A stretch of DNA of 64,000 bases from a virus: the UHGV virus genome UHGV-0300374; one strand, given 5' to 3'. Below the pieces are notes generated by a model that was not told the origin of the DNA, did no database searches, and saw only the letters and a list, made by a program, of their open reading frames with translations. A program made the translations under genes and the position numbers. This document shows, in pieces, positions 5,545 through 43,624 of this stretch (its first letter is position 1; every line of letters starts with the position of its first letter).

Positions 5545-7130
5545 AGTAAAATTTACGAAATTTATATTTTTATAAAATTTTATCGGTTGTCCCAACCTCT
5601 GGGTCACCATCATATGTGAACAAAATATCTACCCTTCTTAACAACCTTCTTAATCTTACTCTCTATATAGTTATATAGTACTATATAGTATCTTAGTAAC
5701 TATCTAGTGGTCTTAATAGCCCTCTGTATAGCCCTTCTAAATAGCCATCTAAACACTCTTCTAACAAGCCTTCTAAACAACCTATACAATCATCTTAACC
5801 ATCTCTCTACACACTCTTAGAAGCTCCTATACACCTCTTAATCTCTATGTAAGCTATGATACTCTCTATAGGTGTTCACTAGGTATTACTAAGCCTCTAT
5901 ATAGACTGTTTTAGCCAACTTAACAGGAATATCTTTACAGACCTTATCTCACAAGGTCTAACACGGTACTAACAAGGTATCTTATAAGCCTGTTTCTACC
6001 TGTATTTTAGAAAGACTGTATAGGTAATTATTCAGAATTTTAAAATTTTTATAAAATAGGACTATCAAGTCATTTTTTAGGGTCTTTGAAGGAACTGAAA
6101 AATATCTGATTAGGATGTATATCTGCTTGGTAGCCCTTAACAGCTCCCTTACAAGTACTTTGCAAAATTTTAAAATATCCTTAACAATCTCTTAACAGTT
6201 CTCACATCTTCTTAACAACTCTTCAAAGGTCTTAACAGATTCTTAACAAGTCTAACAAGGTTGTAACAGTTTTCTAACAAGACTTAATAGGGCTTTACAG
6301 AATCTTAACAGATGACTAACAAGAGCTAACAAGTTAATTTTAAAGAGTTATTTTGTTAAGATAATTAACAAGTTTCTAACAAGTGTTTAATCTTTTTAAC
6401 AAGCTATTAACATGGTCACTATCTCTTTCTTATCGTTCCCTTTCCCTTCTTAGTGATTCCTTAAACATACCTCTTAAAAGCTCTCTATAGCTCTCTATAG
6501 CTCTTTATAAGCCCCTTTAAGCCTCTTCCTAGTATTTACCCCCCAACTGTACAGATAGCTCTTTATAGGTCTTTACAGGAGCTTTTAAGGCTATGTCAAA
6601 GACTCTTACAAGGCTTTTACGTGGTCTTAACAGAGATTTAACAAGGGGCTAACAAGTTGCTAACAAGTGCCTTAAAAGCATAACTATGTAGGGTTTGTTA
6701 AGAAATTGTTAAGAAAATGTTAAGGGGGCTAGCATTTACGTAACTTTATAGCCTCTTTTACGTAACTTTGAAGTAACTTTATAGCCCCTATAACATGTTT
6801 TTTAGTGACTAGCAAGGGGGTTGTTTAACCATTCACAAGATACTAACCAGCCTATAAGCTTACACCCTTATAAGATTCTTTTAAGCCTCTATAAAGCCCT
6901 GTAAAGAGCTTTTTAAGATAGGTTAATGCAATCCCTTAAGTTAGGTTGATAAGGCTGTTATAGAGCTTTATAGAGCGTTTAAATGGGCCATCCCCTTTCT
7001 GGGGTTATTGGCTTTTATTTAAGTTGATTTGATAAAAGGTTATAGAGTAGACTATAGAGTTATTGCTTTTAAGGTCTGATAAGATTCTGGAAAGGAAAGG
7101 GAAAGGGATTGTATAAGGATTCGATAGACG
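5545..7130. repeat. ORF-free block of short degenerate direct repeats (YTAACAAG, CTNTATAG, CTTTTAAG units) at roughly 10-11 bp spacing
   Basis: No ORF of 60 aa or more on either strand across 1.6 kb; dense recurrence of cttaacaag / ctaacaag / ctctatag / ctttatag words. Confidence 0.6.
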
Positions 7131-11535: not shown

Positions 11536-11599
11536 TTTCAGAATCTCCAGTTTAGGACTTTATTTAGTGGGGAAGGTCATTCCCTCCCCGTTGATGTGT

Positions 11600-11628
11600 A
11601 ATTTAACCTATCTAAAAACCAGTGTCAA
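11600..11628 (-). promoter_or_regulatory. sigma70-like promoter within cassette (minus strand TTGACA-N17-TAAATT)
   Basis: Same architecture as 10551-10579; -35 overlaps the stop codon of the upstream gene. Confidence 0.5.
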
Positions 11629-12850: not shown

Positions 12851-12935
12851 TTTAGAATCTCCAGTTTAGGATTTAGTGGTAAAGCTCTTTATCTGGGGCT
12901 TAAGATATCAACTTTTAAGCCCCCTGTAAAGTACT

Positions 12936-13229: not shown

Positions 13230-13315
13230 TTTTAAGTTCTCCAATTTAGGATTTAGTGTTAAAGCTCTTTATCTGGGGCTTACTTTATCGAACTATAAGC
13301 CCCTTGTAAAGTACT

Positions 13316-13699
13316 TTATTTGTTAATTTTGAAGATAGTTACATAACCATCGCTGCCGATGATTTGTGATGCTCCAGCTTTTTCTACTTGATAGCCCATA
13401 TTTTCAAGATGGTAAACAGCATCATCATAACCATATGCGCCGCCCTGATAACGTCTCTTATCACATCTTACTAATACCTTTCCACGTCCTGCCAGTGCAT
13501 TTAGTACGGCTTTTTCACTTGAAAGTGTACCATCTAACATGGTTGCCGTGTAATGGTTGATTCTATTCCCGTTTACATCATACTTAAAATTGAATGCGTG
13601 AACAACGATAATGTTACCTTTAAAATTTTCATCAAGTGACTTCTCCAGTGCGTTGCGAAAGTTGTCTTTGTTGATGAATTTAGGTGCACGATATGCCAT
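13316..13699 (-). CDS. hypothetical protein
   Basis: 127-aa ORF, first gene of the array. Confidence 0.45.
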   Translation of the reverse strand: MAYRAPKFINKDNFRNALEKSLDENFKGNIIVVHAFNFKYDVNGNRINHYTATMLDGTLSSEKAVLNALAGRGKVLVRCDKRRYQGGAYGYDDAVYHLENMGYQVEKAGASQIIGSDGYVTIFKINK

Positions 13700-13762
13700 T
13701 TTTGAATCTCCAGTTTAGGACTTTATTTAGTGGGGAAGGTCATTCCCTCCCCGTTGATGCAA

Positions 13763-13791
13763 ATACTAGATAACCACGTTCAAAGAGTCAA
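13763..13791 (-). promoter_or_regulatory. sigma70-like promoter (minus strand TTGACT-N17-TAGTAT) for the small-gene array
   Basis: -35 at 13786-13791, -10 at 13763-13768, 17-nt spacer, followed by cassette stem-loop and RBS. Confidence 0.45.
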
Positions 13792-13912
13792 GAAAAATTT
13801 TAAAAATATTTTTAGCAAAACTGTAATGAAACGGGCGCACACGACTACCACAAAACAGAACACAAATCAAGAATTATTTTTCAATCCGCTACAAATTTTT
13901 CTCTTGACTTTT

Positions 13913-13943
13913 GGGGAGAGGGGGAGTAAGAGGGGGAGAGGGG
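13913..13943 (+). other. 31-nt polypurine tract with G-quadruplex potential (GGGG AGA GGGGG AGTAAGA GGGGG AGA GGGG)
   Basis: Four G-runs of 4-5 separated by loops of 3, 7 and 3 nt in an AT-rich non-coding region. Confidence 0.5.
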
Positions 13944-13964: not shown

Positions 13965-14155
13965 ACCTACCTGCACGATTCTAAAATGATTTTTCTTGCC
14001 CGACCTGAGCGGGGTCTGCACGTTTTGAAAATGAAAAAGCCCTTTGGAGATTACCTGCACAATTTGAAAATGAATTTTCTCTTTGGAGTTCAAAATTTTC
14101 TCTACAGATTTCTCTATAGAAATATACCTGCACAATTCTGAAATGAAAAAGCCCT
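13965..14155. repeat. four direct repeats, consensus ACCTGCACAATTYTGAAAATGA
   Basis: Copies near 13968, 14015, 14053 and 14125 in the non-coding region between the macro-domain gene and the small-gene array. Confidence 0.55.
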
Positions 14156-14219
14156 CCTTACCTGAAAAATTTACCAGATAAGAAAGGCTTAACCTATTGT
14201 GAATATTCTACAGAGTTTC

Positions 14220-15005
14220 TTAGTTCTTTGCGTCTAAGAAGGTAACTTCTGGTGAAGAGAAGATTGCCTCGATATCCTCATCAGTTCTTGCATAGATATA
14301 AGCTTCTGCATCACTACCAAATGTTACAGCAATTCTGTGATTGCTCTTTGACAGGTGGGTAACTAGAGCGTTACTTAGAGACATCTTTTCAACCGGAGGG
14401 TTACTTTGATGTATCTTACCTTTTCTTCGTCTGAAGAGGGTAACTGCATTATCCGTGAACACTGCTACACCTGCAAAGTATTCTGGTTCACAGTAGTTCT
14501 TCCAACCTGAGAGTAACTTGTGGTACATCTCTCCTTCATAGACATATAGATAAACATCTACACTCTTCATAACCTGATTGATGATAACTGTGACGGCTTG
14601 AGAGTCTAGTCCACCGATACCTGCACCAATCATAGGTAACCCAACTTTCTTCAACTGATTGACTTCACAGTATCTGTTAAGTTGTTTCAAAGATGACTCT
14701 AAAGCACTGTATCGGGCATCTTTACCAGTCTTAAGCTGAGTGTAAAGGTTAGCTATACGGCCTTGTTCTAAACGTGCTACAGAGAAATTACCCAGTAAAT
14801 TTTCACAGGGTTTGTGACCTATACCACCTGCATAGAGGTAAACTTCTGTATCGGTCTCATATGCTTTTGGGTAAAGTTTAGAAATCTTGTCAGCGATACC
14901 TGCACCCATTAAATTCATACAGTTGCAACCGTGACCAATAATATCAAACTTACCTTTATCAAATGCTGAGAAGATATCCCCATTGATGATTTTTACAATA
15001 CCCAT
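14220..15005 (-). CDS. macro-domain protein (TARG1/OARD1/DarG-like, ADP-ribose binding or hydrolase) with uncharacterised C-terminal domain of about 110 aa
   Basis: IINGDIF...DIIGHGCNCMNLMGAGIADKI and VGLPMIGAGIGGLD resemble the two glycine-rich ADP-ribose-binding loops of TARG1-type macrodomains. Confidence 0.6.
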   Translation of the reverse strand: MGIVKIINGDIFSAFDKGKFDIIGHGCNCMNLMGAGIADKISKLYPKAYETDTEVYLYAGGIGHKPCENLLGNFSVARLEQGRIANLYTQLKTGKDARYSALESSLKQLNRYCEVNQLKKVGLPMIGAGIGGLDSQAVTVIINQVMKSVDVYLYVYEGEMYHKLLSGWKNYCEPEYFAGVAVFTDNAVTLFRRRKGKIHQSNPPVEKMSLSNALVTHLSKSNHRIAVTFGSDAEAYIYARTDEDIEAIFSSPEVTFLDAKN

Positions 15006-15206
15006 TTAGCATCTCTCCCAAGATTCTTTATCTTCTGAAGGTTTTACACGTTGTCCTTCGTGGTCTACCCAGATACATCCACAACCTTCACAGATTACTG
15101 GCATTGCATAGCCAGCTTTAAAGTCATCTTCAGTGATAAGACCTTTTAAGTCACCTGTATCACGTCCGAACATTTCGATAGAACAGTCTTTGCAGAAGTC
15201 AGCCAT
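15006..15206 (-). CDS. hypothetical zinc-ribbon protein
   Basis: Trimmed to MADFCKDCSIEMFG (ATG at 15206, RBS AGAGG); CxxC...CEGCGC. Confidence 0.4.
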   Translation of the reverse strand: MADFCKDCSIEMFGRDTGDLKGLITEDDFKAGYAMPVICEGCGCIWVDHEGQRVKPSEDKESWERC

Positions 15207-36216: not shown

Positions 36217-36714
36217 TCAAGCACAATTCGCTTTCATTACCTTATGGATTCTTTTTTCAGCATCTTCATAAGTTTCTTTAGTGATAAACTTAATTGCTGC
36301 AATGTTGGCATTGTAGAAGAGTCTGAGCTTAGAGTCAATCCTTTTTGTCATTACATCAAATTTATGTTGGAGGTTTGCTTCACCATAAACTAGGCCACCT
36401 TTCGTGTAGTAGGTTTGGATAATGTAAAAGTCAAAAAATTCTTTTCCAAAGCTCTCAATATCTTTTTTAATATACTCAGAAGAAGTCTCATAAGTCATCC
36501 AATCACTTTCCTTAGTGACTACCTTCTTCCGAGTCTTGCCAGCAACTTTTCTTTTGGTCACACTATTAAGCTGTTTCTTTCCGATATAATATTGTCCGGT
36601 TTTCTTACAGTATACTAAATAGACAAAGCCAAAATGTTTAGTGGGGTCAACTTCCCCACATAAAGATACCCAATGACCATAGGTAGGGCAATTGCCAAAT
36701 CCTTTAATCTTCAT
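36217..36714 (-). CDS. GIY-YIG nuclease-domain protein (possible homing endonuclease)
   Basis: FGFVYLVYCKKTGQYYIGKKQ matches the GIY-(10-11)-YIG motif. Confidence 0.5.
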   Translation of the reverse strand: MKIKGFGNCPTYGHWVSLCGEVDPTKHFGFVYLVYCKKTGQYYIGKKQLNSVTKRKVAGKTRKKVVTKESDWMTYETSSEYIKKDIESFGKEFFDFYIIQTYYTKGGLVYGEANLQHKFDVMTKRIDSKLRLFYNANIAAIKFITKETYEDAEKRIHKVMKANCA

Positions 36715-42130: not shown

Positions 42131-42943
42131 TTAGTGCAGTTGGTCAGTATTAGTCTGTGAATACTCTTTTTCAGCCATAGCTGAGATTTGCTTCACAAAA
42201 TCATCACCAAAGTTAATGCGCAGCTTCTCTTCAATGATTGAAGCACCAATGCTCACCAGAACATCATTGATTGCTTGCATACTCACACCACCAGTCATAC
42301 TCTCAATGAACTCAATGCTTGTGCCCATCATCTGTGAAAGCTGGATTAGTGCAACGATATTCATCATCGTGGAGATGGCTGGAATCATCAATGCAACTTT
42401 CACCTGAAGTGGCTCTATGTCAGCTACAGAATCATTTTTTACAGCTTCTTCCAAAGAATCTTTGGTTTGCTGGATAATCTCTTTGATTCGTGGGTTTAAT
42501 TCCTCTACACCCCAATCAAGTTTTTCATATCGTGACAGCTTCTCTTCCATGCGCTTCTCAAGAGCAGCCATAACAGCACTCGTTGACGAAATTAATAGGT
42601 TAACTAGCTCATCATAACCTAAGAGCAGTAGCGAGTCTTTTTCTTCAGAGGTCATGGCAATATAGTCATTTTTCTGCATCTCATAAAAAATGAACTCTGC
42701 AAGAGCATCAACACCTACAACAATAGATGCTAAAGCAAGTGTTTTGTCACACAGCATCATATTAACCTGTTCTGCAAAAGCACCGTTATCAGACTTGTCT
42801 TTAGGCAGGTTATAGCTTGCAGGCATAAACTGTTCTGTATAGTTGTTTCCACGAAGAATCATAGCCATGCTTTCTACGGCATTGATTAAGAATGCTTCGT
42901 CAATACCTTTTTCTTCAAGCATTTGTTCTACATTGATATTCAT
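42131..42943 (-). CDS. hypothetical protein
   Basis: 270-aa ORF. Confidence 0.4.
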   Translation of the reverse strand: MNINVEQMLEEKGIDEAFLINAVESMAMILRGNNYTEQFMPASYNLPKDKSDNGAFAEQVNMMLCDKTLALASIVVGVDALAEFIFYEMQKNDYIAMTSEEKDSLLLLGYDELVNLLISSTSAVMAALEKRMEEKLSRYEKLDWGVEELNPRIKEIIQQTKDSLEEAVKNDSVADIEPLQVKVALMIPAISTMMNIVALIQLSQMMGTSIEFIESMTGGVSMQAINDVLVSIGASIIEEKLRINFGDDFVKQISAMAEKEYSQTNTDQLH

Positions 42944-42944
42944 A

Positions 42945-43367
42945 TTATTTCTCTCTCAGTTGGTTAAGTTTCTTTCTAGAACATTTTAAGTTTTCGGATG
43001 AAGAAAAGTCAAGTGTCTTTTCAGAACGTGGATAGTAATGTCTATCCCAAGAAGTTTCAACATCATTAATCAGTGACGCTAGATTACACAGGTCTGTACC
43101 ACTTTGCAACCTCTTTTTAAGAGAATCTAGTAAAGCAACTGTGTCTTTAGCTTTACGTCTAGCTGTAGCAACATCTTTCATATGCTCAAATACAGAGCAT
43201 TTTAAGTCATCTTCATAGTTTTCAGACAACTCTATTTCATGTTGTATATCAACCATTCTCCTGTGATGGTGAGCATATTCCCGTTGAGCAGCAATGTCAA
43301 GTTCTTCCAACTTCTGCAAAGCTCTAACAAAGTCAGCTATGTCTGGGTGAACAAACATTTTCTGCAT
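42945..43367 (-). CDS. hypothetical protein
   Basis: 140-aa ORF; first gene of the minus-strand block, divergent from DNA polymerase. Confidence 0.4.
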   Translation of the reverse strand: MQKMFVHPDIADFVRALQKLEELDIAAQREYAHHHRRMVDIQHEIELSENYEDDLKCSVFEHMKDVATARRKAKDTVALLDSLKKRLQSGTDLCNLASLINDVETSWDRHYYPRSEKTLDFSSSENLKCSRKKLNQLREK

Positions 43368-43624
43368 GTAAGCCTCTTTTAAGTAACTATTAAGTTTTAA
43401 TCTTTTATCTTAACGTATTCTATACGTTATACTTTAAAGCTTTTTAAAAGCTATTAAATAATCTTTTAAGAGTTTTAAAGTATCTGTATAGTTAAACTGT
43501 TAAGTAACCTTTTAAGTAAAAACCCACTTCGCAAAGATTAACACCTTGTCAAGTGCATTGTCAACTTGCTTTTTATAATTTTTTGCAGTAATGTATGAGG
43601 TTAATGATTTTAGAGGGAGTAAAA

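What the first reader, a model, noticed from the sequence alone, without database searches (positions are those of the whole stretch)
13965..14155. Four direct repeats (ACCTGCACAATTYTGAAAATGA) between the macro-domain gene and the accessory array
Seen in sequence: a roughly 22-nt word recurs four times at about 13968, 14015, 14053 and 14125 with only one or two substitutions, two copies followed by AAAAAGCCC. There is no coding potential here. The spacing and conservation suggest an operator array for a DNA-binding regulator, or repeated transcription signals controlling entry into the early accessory region.
Basis: seen in the sequence. Interest (0 to 1): 0.5.

Follow-up and report, generated by a model that had tools for sequence, protein, structure and literature searches.

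The report
Conserved four-repeat array in Felix O1-like phages
Four copies of a 22-base word sit in one non-coding gap of this Felix O1-type phage and are kept almost unchanged in every related phage genus examined, so they are a real, previously undescribed functional element, most likely a row of protein-binding sites, though what binds them is still unknown.

Summary
The window is a Felixounavirus. The four repeats lie at 13968-13989, 14013-14034, 14052-14073 and 14125-14146. On the gene (-) strand the word reads TCATTTYMRAAWYGTGCAGGTA.

The array occurs once per genome, directly after the intrinsic terminator of the macro-domain gene. It lies upstream of the sigma-70 promoters of the accessory genes. 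It is present in Felixounavirus, Suspvirus, Mooglevirus and the Erwinia Kolesnikviruses, with 3-4 copies.

The core TCATTT-N7-GTGCA varies about as little as second codon positions of the neighbouring gene. Felix and Erwinia arrays are 87% identical, while the adjacent macro protein is 40% identical.

Several readings were tested and rejected:
- It is not coding.
- It is not the terminal repeat, which lies about 7 kb away.
- It is not a genome-wide promoter motif.
- It is not a structured or Rfam RNA.
- It has no bacterial counterpart.

Published Bas63 knockout data show that insertions in it are tolerated.

Best reading (about 0.3): a row of asymmetric, two-part double-stranded-DNA binding sites for an unidentified conserved protein. 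It would act as an operator or boundary element controlling transcription into the accessory region. Rivals are origin iterons, a tandem-repeat decoy RNA, and weak tandem promoters.

The parts
14125..14146 (-). Repeat copy 4 (TCATTTCAGAATTGTGCAGGTA). Its 5' half is the T-tail of terminator t13. It lies in the spacer of a sigma-70-like promoter.
14052..14073 (-). Repeat copy 3 (TCATTTTCAAATTGTGCAGGTA), preceded by the spacer element CTCCAAAGAGAAAAT.
14013..14034 (-). Repeat copy 2 (TCATTTTCAAAACGTGCAGACC), the 'CGTGCA' variant. It is orthologous to the CGTGCA copy of the Erwinia phages and is preceded by CTCCAAAGGGCTTTT.
13968..13989 (-). Repeat copy 1 (TCATTTTAGAATCGTGCAGGTA), preceded by GGTCGGGCAAGAAAAA. 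That spacer is nearly identical in the Erwinia phages.
14149..14190 (-). Intrinsic terminator of the macro-domain gene (t13 of Felix O1). The loop, 3' arm and tail (AAATTTTTCAGGTAAGGAGGGCTTTTTCATTT) are homologous to the repeat unit (AAATTGTGCAGGTAATCTCCAAAGGGCTTTTTCATTT).
14121..14149 (-). Sigma-70-like promoter overlapping copy 4: TTTTCA (14149-14144), 17 bases, TATATT (14126-14121). The form TTTTCA-17-TAnnnT is kept in 20 of 26 relatives. It is lost in Suspvirus-type and Erwinia phages.
14074..14124 (-). Long gap between copies 4 and 3. It holds two extra copies of the spacer-type element (TCTATAGAGAAAT / TCTGTAGAGAAAAT) and no core motif. This is consistent with a decayed fifth unit.
   Evidence: (family D4)
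13913..13943 (+). G-rich tract, a perfect purine mirror repeat GGGGAGAGGGGGAG-TAA-GAGGGGGAGAGGGG (C-rich on the gene strand). It flanks the array and is replaced by an unrelated segment in the Bas63-like subclade.
13842..13870 (-). Candidate upstream promoter for the accessory genes: TTGATT (13870-13865), 17 bases, TGG-TAGTCG (extended -10), with A/T-rich UP-like sequence upstream. Conserved in Felixounavirus, Mooglevirus and Suspvirus. Read by eye from the alignment.
   Evidence: inference from sequence
13763..13791 (-). Sigma-70 promoter of the next gene: TTGACT-17-TAGTAT. It is followed by the 5'UTR hairpin GGGGAGGGAATGACCTTCCCC (13752-13732; repeat DR_6 of phage wV8).
14220..15005 (-). Macro-domain ('phosphatase') gene. 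The array follows it in every genus.
13316..13699 (-). First gene of the accessory region (homologue of wV8 gp014; function unknown).

Best explanation
The repeats are a single-locus array of three to five asymmetric, two-part recognition sites on double-stranded DNA. On the gene strand the core is TCATTT, then exactly 7 A/T-rich bases, then GTGCA.

The array arose by tandem duplication of the 3' arm and T-tail of the terminator that ends the conserved early operon (up to and including the macro-domain gene). It has been kept since before the Ounavirinae genera split.

It occupies the stretch between that terminator and the sigma-70 promoters that drive the small accessory genes running towards the genome end.

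I infer that an unidentified, highly conserved sequence-specific protein (host or core phage) binds each site as a monomer or asymmetric unit. The occupied array would then act as an operator or boundary element:
- The first site lies inside the spacer of a sigma-70-like promoter that sits immediately after the terminator.
- The next sites lie in that promoter's transcribed leader.
- Occupancy would therefore set how much transcription restarts or reads through into the accessory region.

Shown: the repeats, their uniqueness in the genome, their conservation and constraint, their non-coding nature, their position relative to terminator and promoters, and their dispensability in the laboratory.

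Inferred: that they act as DNA rather than RNA, that a protein binds them, and the regulatory outcome.
For: - **Significance and uniqueness.** Four copies are present against 0.44 expected. The motif and its sub-motifs occur nowhere else in the 64 kb window, and nowhere else in the complete UAB_Phi87 genome.
- **Conservation.** The array is present in all four genera sampled. It is present in 26 of 26 loci retrieved through the macro protein, that is, independently of the motif, at fixed offsets from the stop codon.
- **Constraint.** Nucleotide diversity is 0.014 at the 11 core positions, 0.061 in the linker and 0.060 in the spacers. In the adjacent gene it is 0.027, 0.018 and 0.136 at codon positions 1, 2 and 3. 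Felix and Erwinia arrays are 87% identical over 108 aligned bases, while the neighbouring macro protein is 40% identical.
- **Old, separately maintained copies.** Copy-specific variants are orthologous across genera, for example the CGTGCA copy and the GGTCKGGCAAGAAAAATCATTTT spacer. The copies are therefore old and are not being homogenised.
- **Site geometry.** The core has a strictly fixed length (always 7 bases between the two invariant blocks) and an A/T-rich linker, whereas the distance between copies varies. This is the geometry expected for rigid duplex recognition at independent sites.
- **Weak RNA case.** Both strands fold less well than shuffled sequence (z +1.6 and +2.4) and nothing in Rfam matches.
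- **Position.** The order is terminator, then array, then promoters. Copy 4 overlaps TTTTCA-17-TAnnnT in 20 of 26 relatives.
- **Dispensability.** Insertions in Bas63 'gene 96', an ORF drawn across the array, are neutral on all laboratory hosts. The downstream accessory genes are also neutral, which fits an element serving non-essential genes.
Against: - No binding protein was identified. The neighbouring genes have no recognisable DNA-binding domain.
- The sites are direct and asymmetric, unlike classical dyad-symmetric phage operators.
- The promoter overlapping copy 4 is not kept in Suspvirus-type or Erwinia phages, although the repeats are. Promoter occlusion therefore cannot be the whole conserved function.
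- Copies 1-3 lie 100-300 bp upstream of the main accessory-gene promoters, which is far for a simple operator.
- Conservation this strong for an element that is dispensable in the laboratory points to a conditional role not captured by this model.
- No transcriptome data exist for any Ounavirinae phage in the searchable literature.
Confidence: 0.3

Rival explanations
1. Iterons of a phage replication origin. A phage initiator or replisome component would bind the direct repeats and open nearby A/T-rich DNA, helped by transcription from the neighbouring promoters.
For: - There are three to five non-palindromic direct repeats of about 22 bp in a conserved 520-bp non-coding region, with A/T-rich stretches and promoters nearby.
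- Conservation is comparable to that of the replication and morphogenesis modules, the only parts well conserved between Felix O1 and the Erwinia phages.
- Non-essentiality does not exclude an origin if origins are redundant, as in T4 and T7 (general knowledge).
Against: - Cumulative GC skew has its minimum at about 43.5 kb (the divergent primase-helicase / DNA polymerase region) and shows no inflection at 14 kb.
- No initiator gene is adjacent.
- The primase-helicase is of the T7 gp4 type (Toprim + DnaB_C) with no recognisable origin-binding domain.
- Spacing is irregular (37-77 bp) and shifts by 2-8 bp between genera, so helical phasing is not kept.
- Insertions in the array carry no fitness cost in Bas63.
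Confidence: 0.15
2. The array is transcribed and acts as RNA. It would be a tandem-repeat decoy or platform, processed into or bound as units of about 37-45 nt. The model is the type III antitoxin ToxI and the phage 'pseudo-ToxI' that neutralises the ToxN abortive-infection RNase.
For: - Unit length is 37/37/39 nt in Erwinia phages and 39/45 nt here, in the range I recall for type III antitoxin repeats (34-45 nt; ToxI is 36 nt).
- The units are non-identical, as reported for TenpI.
- Copy number varies between 3 and 4-5.
- Every unit carries the invariant AAAUGA on the + strand, which contains the AA/AU-type ToxN cleavage motif.
- There is a phage precedent.
- The element is dispensable on laboratory hosts, as a counter-defence element would be.
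- It lies next to genes of counter-defence flavour (macro domain).
Against: - Similarity to ToxI is at chance level (p about 0.35), and no Rfam family matches at E up to 10.
- No related array was found next to a toxin gene, or anywhere, in bacterial species-representative genomes, PLSDB plasmids, E. coli complete genomes or metagenomes. All true matches are Ounavirinae phages.
- No convincing promoter-repeats-terminator unit exists on either strand.
- The strictly fixed 7-base linker, combined with variable spacing between copies, suits duplex recognition better.
Confidence: 0.13
3. Four tandem weak host-RNA-polymerase promoters (repeated transcription signals) that restart transcription after the terminator.
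For: - Copy 4 scores 9 of 12 as TTTTCA-17-TATATT.
- In Felix-type phages, copies 4, 3 and 1 are each followed at the right distance by TAnnnT (TAGAGT/TATATT, TAATCT, TAGGTT), and the block upstream is A/T-rich like an UP element.
Against: - The invariant bases (TCATTT, GTGCA) fall mostly in the promoter spacer, not in the -35 and -10 hexamers.
- The -35 equivalents of copies 3 and 1 (AATTCA, AAATCA) match TTGACA at 2 of 6 positions.
- Copy 2 has no -10 element.
- The -10-like hexamers are lost in Suspvirus-type and Erwinia phages while the repeats persist.
- The motif is absent from all other promoters of the genome.
Confidence: 0.1
4. A neutral relic: slipped-strand duplications of the terminator tail with no function of their own.
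For: The unit is visibly homologous to the loop, 3' arm and tail of terminator t13. Strand slippage readily creates such arrays (discussion of pseudo-ToxI).
Against: - Core positions vary about ten times less than third codon positions of the adjacent gene.
- The array survives, copy by copy, between genera whose flanking protein is only 40% identical.
Confidence: 0.03
5. Part of a small protein-coding gene, as annotated in public records (wV8 gp013 on the gene strand; Phi87_49/50, bas63_0096/97, Sf13 gp58 and Pr103Blw_00144 on the opposite strand).
For: In Felix-type phages copies 1-3 are spaced 45 and 39 bases apart, so one 51-codon frame on the + strand reads through three copies.
Against: - Spacings are 41, 43, 37, 73-77 bases in other lineages, and there are 2- and 4-base indels inside the supposed ORFs.
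- The start codons are not conserved.
- No ribosome-binding site is present.
Confidence: 0.02
6. Terminal repeat or packaging signal of the linear genome.
For: Felix O1-type phages have short direct terminal repeats of about 0.6 kb. Such repeats are usually non-coding and rich in short repeats.
Against: - The annotated 581-bp terminal repeat of Pr103Blw lies about 6 kb beyond the array.
- Its homologue in this window is at 6129-6729.
- The SpeI map of UAB_Phi87 places the ends in the same region, not at the array.
Confidence: 0.01

Closest known systems
Iteron arrays of phage and plasmid origins (lambda ori O-protein sites, P1 and F plasmid iterons)
   Same: - Three to five direct, non-palindromic repeats of about 20 bp at a single non-coding locus.
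- A two-part core about one helical turn apart, as for Rep proteins that contact two successive major grooves.
- A/T-rich DNA and promoters nearby.
   Different: - No initiator gene adjacent or recognisable.
- Irregular spacing without helical phasing (37-77 bp).
- No GC-skew signal.
- Dispensable in Bas63.
- The replisome is of the T7 type, which classically starts from transcripts rather than iterons.
Type III antitoxin ToxI and the phage phiTE 'pseudo-ToxI' decoy RNA
   Same: - Tandem direct repeats of about 36-45 nt.
- Non-coding.
- Variable copy number.
- An A-rich AA/AU-containing motif in every unit.
- Carried by a virulent myovirus and dispensable on naive hosts.
   Different: - No significant sequence or covariance-model similarity to ToxI.
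- One 73-77-bp gap in the array.
- No clear promoter-repeats-terminator unit.
- No bacterial cognate array or toxin found.
Injection-stop region (iss) of phage T5 with its conserved DnaA-box cluster
   Same: - A conserved non-coding repeat cluster several kb inside one genome end: about 7-9% of the genome here, 7.9% in T5.
- It is more conserved than the surrounding small early genes.
- In my recollection the T5 pre-early genes are likewise transcribed towards the terminus.
- In the Erwinia phages each copy is a one-mismatch DnaA box (CTATGCACA / TTATGCACG).
   Different: - Felix-type copies, including those in this window, match the DnaA box at only 6 of 9 positions.
- There are no large inverted repeats or palindromes.
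- The array is not inside the terminal repeat.
- Two-step DNA transfer has never been reported for Felix O1-type phages.
Monomeric AraC-family sites (the MarA/SoxS/Rob 'marbox'); recalled from memory, not tested
   Same: An asymmetric site of about 20 bp with a GCAC block and an A-rich block, separated by about 7-8 A/T-rich bases. On the + strand the motif reads TGCAC-N7-AAATGA.
   Different: Only about 9 of 14 specified marbox positions match, and the spacing is off by one base. No evidence that any host AraC-family protein binds here.
Promoter-early stem-loop (PeSL) cassettes of T4-type phages (recalled from memory; not looked up here)
   Same: Repeated regulatory modules in the hyperplastic early region. 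The neighbouring accessory genes of this phage do carry repeated promoter-in-hairpin modules.
   Different: The four repeats themselves are not hairpins and not good promoters. They do not flank gene cassettes, and they occur at one locus only.

Membership tests
Iteron-type replication origin | Three or more direct repeats of about 17-22 bp | tested here: met
   Four 22-bp copies
Iteron-type replication origin | Regular, helically phased spacing of the repeats | tested here: not met
   Spacing is 45/39/73 here, 45/41/75 in Mooglevirus, 39/37/37 in Erwinia phages and 43 in wV8
Iteron-type replication origin | A cognate initiator protein, usually encoded next to the iterons | tested here: not met
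   The ten neighbouring proteins have no Rep or DNA-binding domain. The primase-helicase is Toprim + DnaB_C only
Iteron-type replication origin | Replication starts there (skew inflection, marker frequency, essentiality) | tested here: not met
   No skew change at 14 kb; the minimum is at about 43.5 kb. Insertions are neutral in Bas63. Direct mapping is not possible with these tools
Type III antitoxin (ToxI family) or phage pseudo-antitoxin | Tandem direct repeats of about 34-45 nt | tested here: inconclusive
   37/37/39 in Erwinia phages and 39/45 here, but there is a 73-77-bp gap and the units are non-identical
Type III antitoxin (ToxI family) or phage pseudo-antitoxin | Sequence and structure match to ToxI | tested here: not met
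   No Rfam hit at E up to 10. Local alignment to ToxI is at chance level
Type III antitoxin (ToxI family) or phage pseudo-antitoxin | Promoter upstream of, and terminator downstream of, the repeats on one strand | tested here: inconclusive
   - strand: promoter at copy 4 but no terminator after copy 1. + strand: the hairpin of t13 lies downstream, but the only candidate promoter (TTGACT-17-TAAGAG) lacks the -7 T
Type III antitoxin (ToxI family) or phage pseudo-antitoxin | A cognate bacterial array next to an endoribonuclease toxin | tested here: not met
   None found in GTDB representative genomes, PLSDB, E. coli complete genomes or JGI metagenomes. Sensitivity is limited for strain-specific plasmids
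Sigma-70 promoter class | -35 and -10 hexamers at 16-18 bp spacing | tested here: inconclusive
   Copy 4 scores 9/12. Copies 3 and 1 have TAnnnT but poor -35 elements. Copy 2 has none. The features are lost in Suspvirus-type and Erwinia phages
Sigma-70 promoter class | The same signal recurs in front of other transcription units | tested here: not met
   The motif is found only at this locus in the window and in the whole UAB_Phi87 genome
Classical dimeric-repressor operator | Dyad symmetry within each site | tested here: not met
   The sites are asymmetric. No inverted repeat matches the motif
Direct terminal repeat or packaging site | Located at the physical genome ends | tested here: not met
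   The terminal repeat maps to window 6129-6729, 7.2 kb away
DnaA-box cluster (T5 iss-like or oriC-like) | 9-mers matching TTWTNCACA | tested here: not met
   Read by eye: the copies in this window give ACCTGCACA (6/9). Erwinia-phage copies give CTATGCACA or TTATGCACG (8/9)
Structured non-coding RNA | Stable or conserved secondary structure | tested here: not met
   z-scores +1.59 and +2.43, that is, less stable than shuffles. No Rfam family matches

The most novel reading that the evidence does not exclude
The array is transcribed and works as a tandem-repeat decoy RNA of a new family, with no detectable sequence similarity to ToxI. Each 37-45-nt unit carries the invariant UGCAC-N7-AAAUGA. 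The units would titrate or inhibit a host RNA-cleaving or RNA-binding defence protein, as phiTE pseudo-ToxI does for ToxN. That would make it a subfamily-wide, constitutively carried RNA counter-defence.

A still bolder variant that is also not excluded: the array is a DNA-entry pause site analogous to the T5 injection-stop signal.
Probability: 0.1. Interest if true: 0.75.

Novelty: new member of a known kind. Interest (0 to 1): 0.45.

Why it matters
Felix O1-type phages are diagnostic and therapeutic workhorses, yet how their transcription and replication are controlled is essentially unknown. The Felix O1 genome paper states this openly.

This array is one of the most conserved non-coding elements found in their genomes. 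It is more constrained than the neighbouring genes and is shared by four genera infecting Salmonella, Escherichia, Shigella, Citrobacter and Erwinia.

It marks the boundary between the conserved early operon and the fast-evolving accessory (likely host-takeover or counter-defence) genes. Identifying what binds it would give a first handle on regulation in this subfamily.

It would also correct spurious ORFs in many database records. It would tell phage engineers whether this convenient 'empty' gap is a safe insertion site. If the RNA-decoy or DNA-entry readings were true, the element would be of much wider interest.

Tried and rejected
1. **Terminal repeat or pac site.** Rejected using the SpeI map of UAB_Phi87, the annotated repeat of Pr103Blw, and mapping to window 6129-6729.
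2. **Coding ORFs on either strand.** Rejected by frame-breaking indels and spacings.
3. **Known RNA family or structured RNA.** No Rfam hit, and both strands fold worse than shuffles.
4. **tRNA.** None in the window.
5. **Homology to the ToxI antitoxin.** The shared GTGCAG(C/G)TAG and AGAAATTCA strings are at chance level.
6. **Bacterial or plasmid counterpart.** A two-copy pattern scan of 185,579 species genomes and of JGI metagenomes, plus blastn against PLSDB and E. coli complete genomes, found only Ounavirinae phages and unrelated repeats.
7. **Single-copy pattern scan of viral contigs.** This gave mostly chance matches. The real arrays were all on Felix-like contigs of about 85-90 kb.
8. 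**More distant macro-domain phages (L158, L159).** They have no array.
9. **GC-skew support for an origin.** None at this locus.
10. **Candidate binder among neighbours.** Pfam and PHROGs gave only 'unknown function'.
11. **Host-factor consensus matching by eye** (IHF, Fis, CRP, LexA, sigma-54, sigma-E, sigma-32, NusB boxA, Tus-Ter, CsrA). No convincing match. DnaA boxes fit only the Erwinia-phage copies. A marbox-like geometry was noted but is weak. None of this was tested by a tool.
12. **Literature.** No description of this array, and no transcriptome of any Ounavirinae phage, was found.
13. **The + strand promoter TTGACT-17-TAAGAG.** Considered, then judged more likely to be part of the UP-like upstream region of a gene-strand promoter.
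Full report
**What the window is**

The region is 94-98% identical to many Felixounavirus genomes (Felix O1, wV8, UAB_Phi87, LF110P2 and others). The window runs opposite to the Felix O1 numbering, so the genes around the finding are on the - strand.

**The observation**

Four direct copies lie on the + strand at 13968-13989, 14013-14034, 14052-14073 and 14125-14146. A degenerate 19-mer finds exactly these four, plus one 3-mismatch hit elsewhere in the 64 kb. Chance expectation is 0.44, and no shuffle reached five hits.

On the gene strand the unit reads TCATTTYMRAAWYGTGCAGGTA. At copy 4 it is the T-tail and 3' stem arm of the intrinsic terminator of the macro-domain gene (14190..14149; terminator t13 in the Felix O1 paper). 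At copy 2 it is a hairpin-less relic of the same sequence.

**Anatomy on the gene strand**

The elements run in this order:
- macro-domain gene (15005..14220; Pfam Macro)
- terminator t13
- copy 4, abutting the T-tail
- a 51-base gap holding two spacer-type half units
- copy 3, copy 2, copy 1
- a C-rich tract; on the + strand this is a perfect purine mirror repeat, GGGGAGAGGGGGAG-TAA-GAGGGGGAGAGGGG, at 13913-13943
- an A/T-rich conserved block with a candidate extended -10 promoter (TTGATT-17-TGG-TAGTCG, 13870..13842)
- the promoter TTGACT-17-TAGTAT (13791..13763)
- a 5'UTR hairpin
- the first accessory gene (13699..13316)

The repeat unit is visibly homologous to the loop, 3' arm and tail of the terminator. 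Compare AAATTTTTCAGGTAAGGAGGGCTTTTTCATTT with AAATTGTGCAGGTAATCTCCAAAGGGCTTTTTCATTT. The array therefore probably arose by slipped duplication of the terminator's downstream half.

**Distribution**

The array is present, always directly after the macro gene's terminator, in four genera:
- Felixounavirus
- Suspvirus (SUSP2)
- Mooglevirus (KMM4, Sf13)
- Kolesnikvirus phages of Erwinia (Hena2 and two viral contigs)

In a sample chosen independently of the motif (26 viral contigs retrieved through the macro protein), 26 of 26 carry four copies at near-constant offsets from the stop codon.

The VpaE1-like lineage (ECML-1, VpaE1_ev035) has a different macro allele and terminator and only three copies. 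One metagenomic contig also has three.

In the complete UAB_Phi87 genome the motif occurs only at this locus. In the window its sub-motifs are not enriched elsewhere.

Pattern scans of viral contigs, 185,579 bacterial species genomes and JGI metagenomes were run, together with blastn against plasmids and E. coli complete genomes. They found no true relative outside Ounavirinae phages.

**Selection**

Within Felix-type phages (n = 19), nucleotide diversity is as follows:

| Positions | Diversity |
|---|---|
| 44 core columns (TCATTT and GTGCA) | 0.014 |
| 7-base linkers | 0.061 |
| Spacers and terminator | 0.060 |
| Macro gene, codon position 1 | 0.027 |
| Macro gene, codon position 2 | 0.018 |
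| Macro gene, codon position 3 | 0.136 |

Between Felix-type and Moogle/Susp-type phages the terminator-plus-array segment is 78% identical, against 70% for the macro gene. Between this phage and an Erwinia phage the arrays align at 87% identity over 108 positions, while the macro proteins are 40% identical.

Copy-specific features are orthologous across genera, namely the CGTGCA copy and the spacer GGTCKGGCAAGAAAAATCATTTT. Each copy has therefore been maintained separately for a long time, without homogenisation.

The core has a strictly fixed length: always 7 A/T-rich bases between the two invariant blocks. The distance between copies, in contrast, drifts (37-45 and 73-77 bp; 2- and 4-base indels).

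**What it is not**

- **Not coding.** The spacings and indels break all the ORFs that public records draw over it: wV8 gp013, Phi87_49/50, bas63_0096/97, Sf13 gp58 and Pr103Blw_00144.
- **Not the terminal repeat.** UAB_Phi87 has a 608-bp repeat, and its SpeI map places the ends about 6 kb away. Pr103Blw has an annotated 581-bp repeat whose homologue is at window 6129-6729.
- **Not a known or structured RNA.** No Rfam match at E up to 10. Both strands fold worse than shuffled controls (z +1.59 and +2.43).
- **Not a general promoter class.** It is a single locus.
- **Not essential.** In the published Bas63 PhageMaP screen, 'gene 96' scores +0.24 to +0.98 on all hosts shown. Gene 96 is the ORF drawn over copies 1-4. 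Its scores are like those of the neutral macro gene and unlike those of essential genes, which score -1 to -2.7.

**Weighing mechanisms**

*Favoured reading.* A fixed-geometry two-part core with an A/T linker, independent site spacing and lack of RNA structure point to recognition of duplex DNA by an asymmetric or two-domain protein.

The array's position is between a strong terminator and the promoters of the accessory genes. Copy 4 also overlaps TTTTCA-17-TAnnnT in 20 of 26 relatives. Both observations suggest an operator or boundary role for transcription entering the accessory region.

The weaknesses are these:
- No binder was identified.
- The sites have no dyad symmetry.
- The promoter-like context is lost in Suspvirus-type and Erwinia phages, although the repeats persist.

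*Iteron-type origin.* This is the classical alternative. Against it:
- There is no skew signal; the cumulative minimum is at about 43.5 kb.
- There is no initiator, and the primase-helicase is of the T7 gp4 type.
- The spacing is not helically phased.
- The array is dispensable.

*RNA decoy.* The precedent is ToxI and phiTE pseudo-ToxI. This reading fits the unit length, the variable copy number, the invariant AAAUGA on the + strand, the dispensability and the genomic neighbourhood. However, similarity to ToxI is at chance level, no cognate bacterial locus was found, and no clean transcription unit is visible.

*T5 injection-stop analogy.* The T5 signal is a conserved repeat cluster with DnaA boxes at 7.9% of the genome. 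The analogy is intriguing because the array lies about 7-9% of the genome length from the right end, and because the Erwinia-phage copies are one-mismatch DnaA boxes. The copies in this window match at only 6 of 9 positions, and no two-step DNA transfer is known for these phages.

**Novelty**

I found no description of this array in the Felix O1, wV8, UAB_Phi87 or comparative Felixounavirus papers, and no transcriptome for the subfamily.

It is best filed as a new, undescribed member of the general class of direct-repeat cis-acting arrays, with its partner and output still to be found.

**Verdict**

- Interest is moderate.

Noticed in passing
window 13913-13943 (+ strand): A perfect homopurine mirror repeat, GGGGAGAGGGGGAG-TAA-GAGGGGGAGAGGGG. 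It is a textbook triplex (H-DNA) and G-quadruplex motif in a genome of about 37% GC. A G/C-rich tract is kept at this spot in all genera, but a Bas63-like subclade replaces it with an unrelated segment that is G-rich on the other strand. Public assemblies break here: the LMP34 record ends inside it, and VpaE1_ev035 carries what looks like a Nextera mosaic-end junction (CTGTCTCT|AGAGACAG, recognised from memory) in it.
   Followed up: partly
window 6129-6729: Homologue (89.6% identity) of the annotated 581-bp direct terminal repeat of phage Pr103Blw. The physical genome end of this phage type therefore falls inside the window, in the large non-coding gap where the GC skew changes sign.
   Followed up: partly
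window 13265-13312 and 12885-12932 (- strand): Repeated promoter-in-hairpin modules in front of accessory genes: TTTACA, then the stem GGGGCTT...AAGCCCC enclosing the -10 (TAAAGT / TATCTT). They correspond to the 57-bp direct repeats of Felix O1 and to repeats DR_1/7/9 of wV8. They resemble the promoter-early stem-loop cassettes of T4-type phages.
   Followed up: partly
window 13732-13752 and about 11567-11600: The same G/C hairpin, GGGGAGGGAATGACCTTCCCC, recurs in the 5' leaders of two accessory genes (wV8 DR_6). One public record annotates it as a terminator on the opposite strand.
   Followed up: no
window 15006-15206 (- strand): A 66-aa protein with two CxxC pairs (a likely zinc ribbon), encoded immediately upstream of the macro gene and abutting it. 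It is conserved in all genera, has no Pfam family, and belongs to a PHROG of unknown function. It is a possible small nucleic-acid-binding protein worth testing against the array.
   Followed up: partly
public records: wV8 gp013; Phi87_49/50; bas63_0096/0097; Sf13 gp58; Pr103Blw_00144; KMM4_00017: Small 'hypothetical proteins' are annotated across the repeat array or the G-tract on one strand or the other. Frame-breaking indels between genera show these are spurious gene calls.
   Followed up: yes
L162 (ECML-1) 2600-2800; L163 (VpaE1_ev035): A lineage with a different macro-gene allele and a different terminator stem (compensated changes). It has only three repeat copies; the position of copy 3 is taken by an unrelated 50-base segment.
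   Followed up: partly
window about 42943-43595: Minimum of the cumulative GC skew, at the divergent gap between the primase-helicase operon and the DNA polymerase gene. This is the most obvious alternative place for a replication origin or the main early divergent promoters.
   Followed up: no
window 36217-36714 (- strand): A SegE-like GIY-YIG homing endonuclease gene within the replication and nucleotide-metabolism module.
   Followed up: no
L001 (KhF3) 1501-2416 versus window 13300-13733: Many relatives carry about 480 extra bases just downstream of the array region, at or near the gp014 homologue. This shows that gene content turns over immediately next to the invariant array.
   Followed up: no
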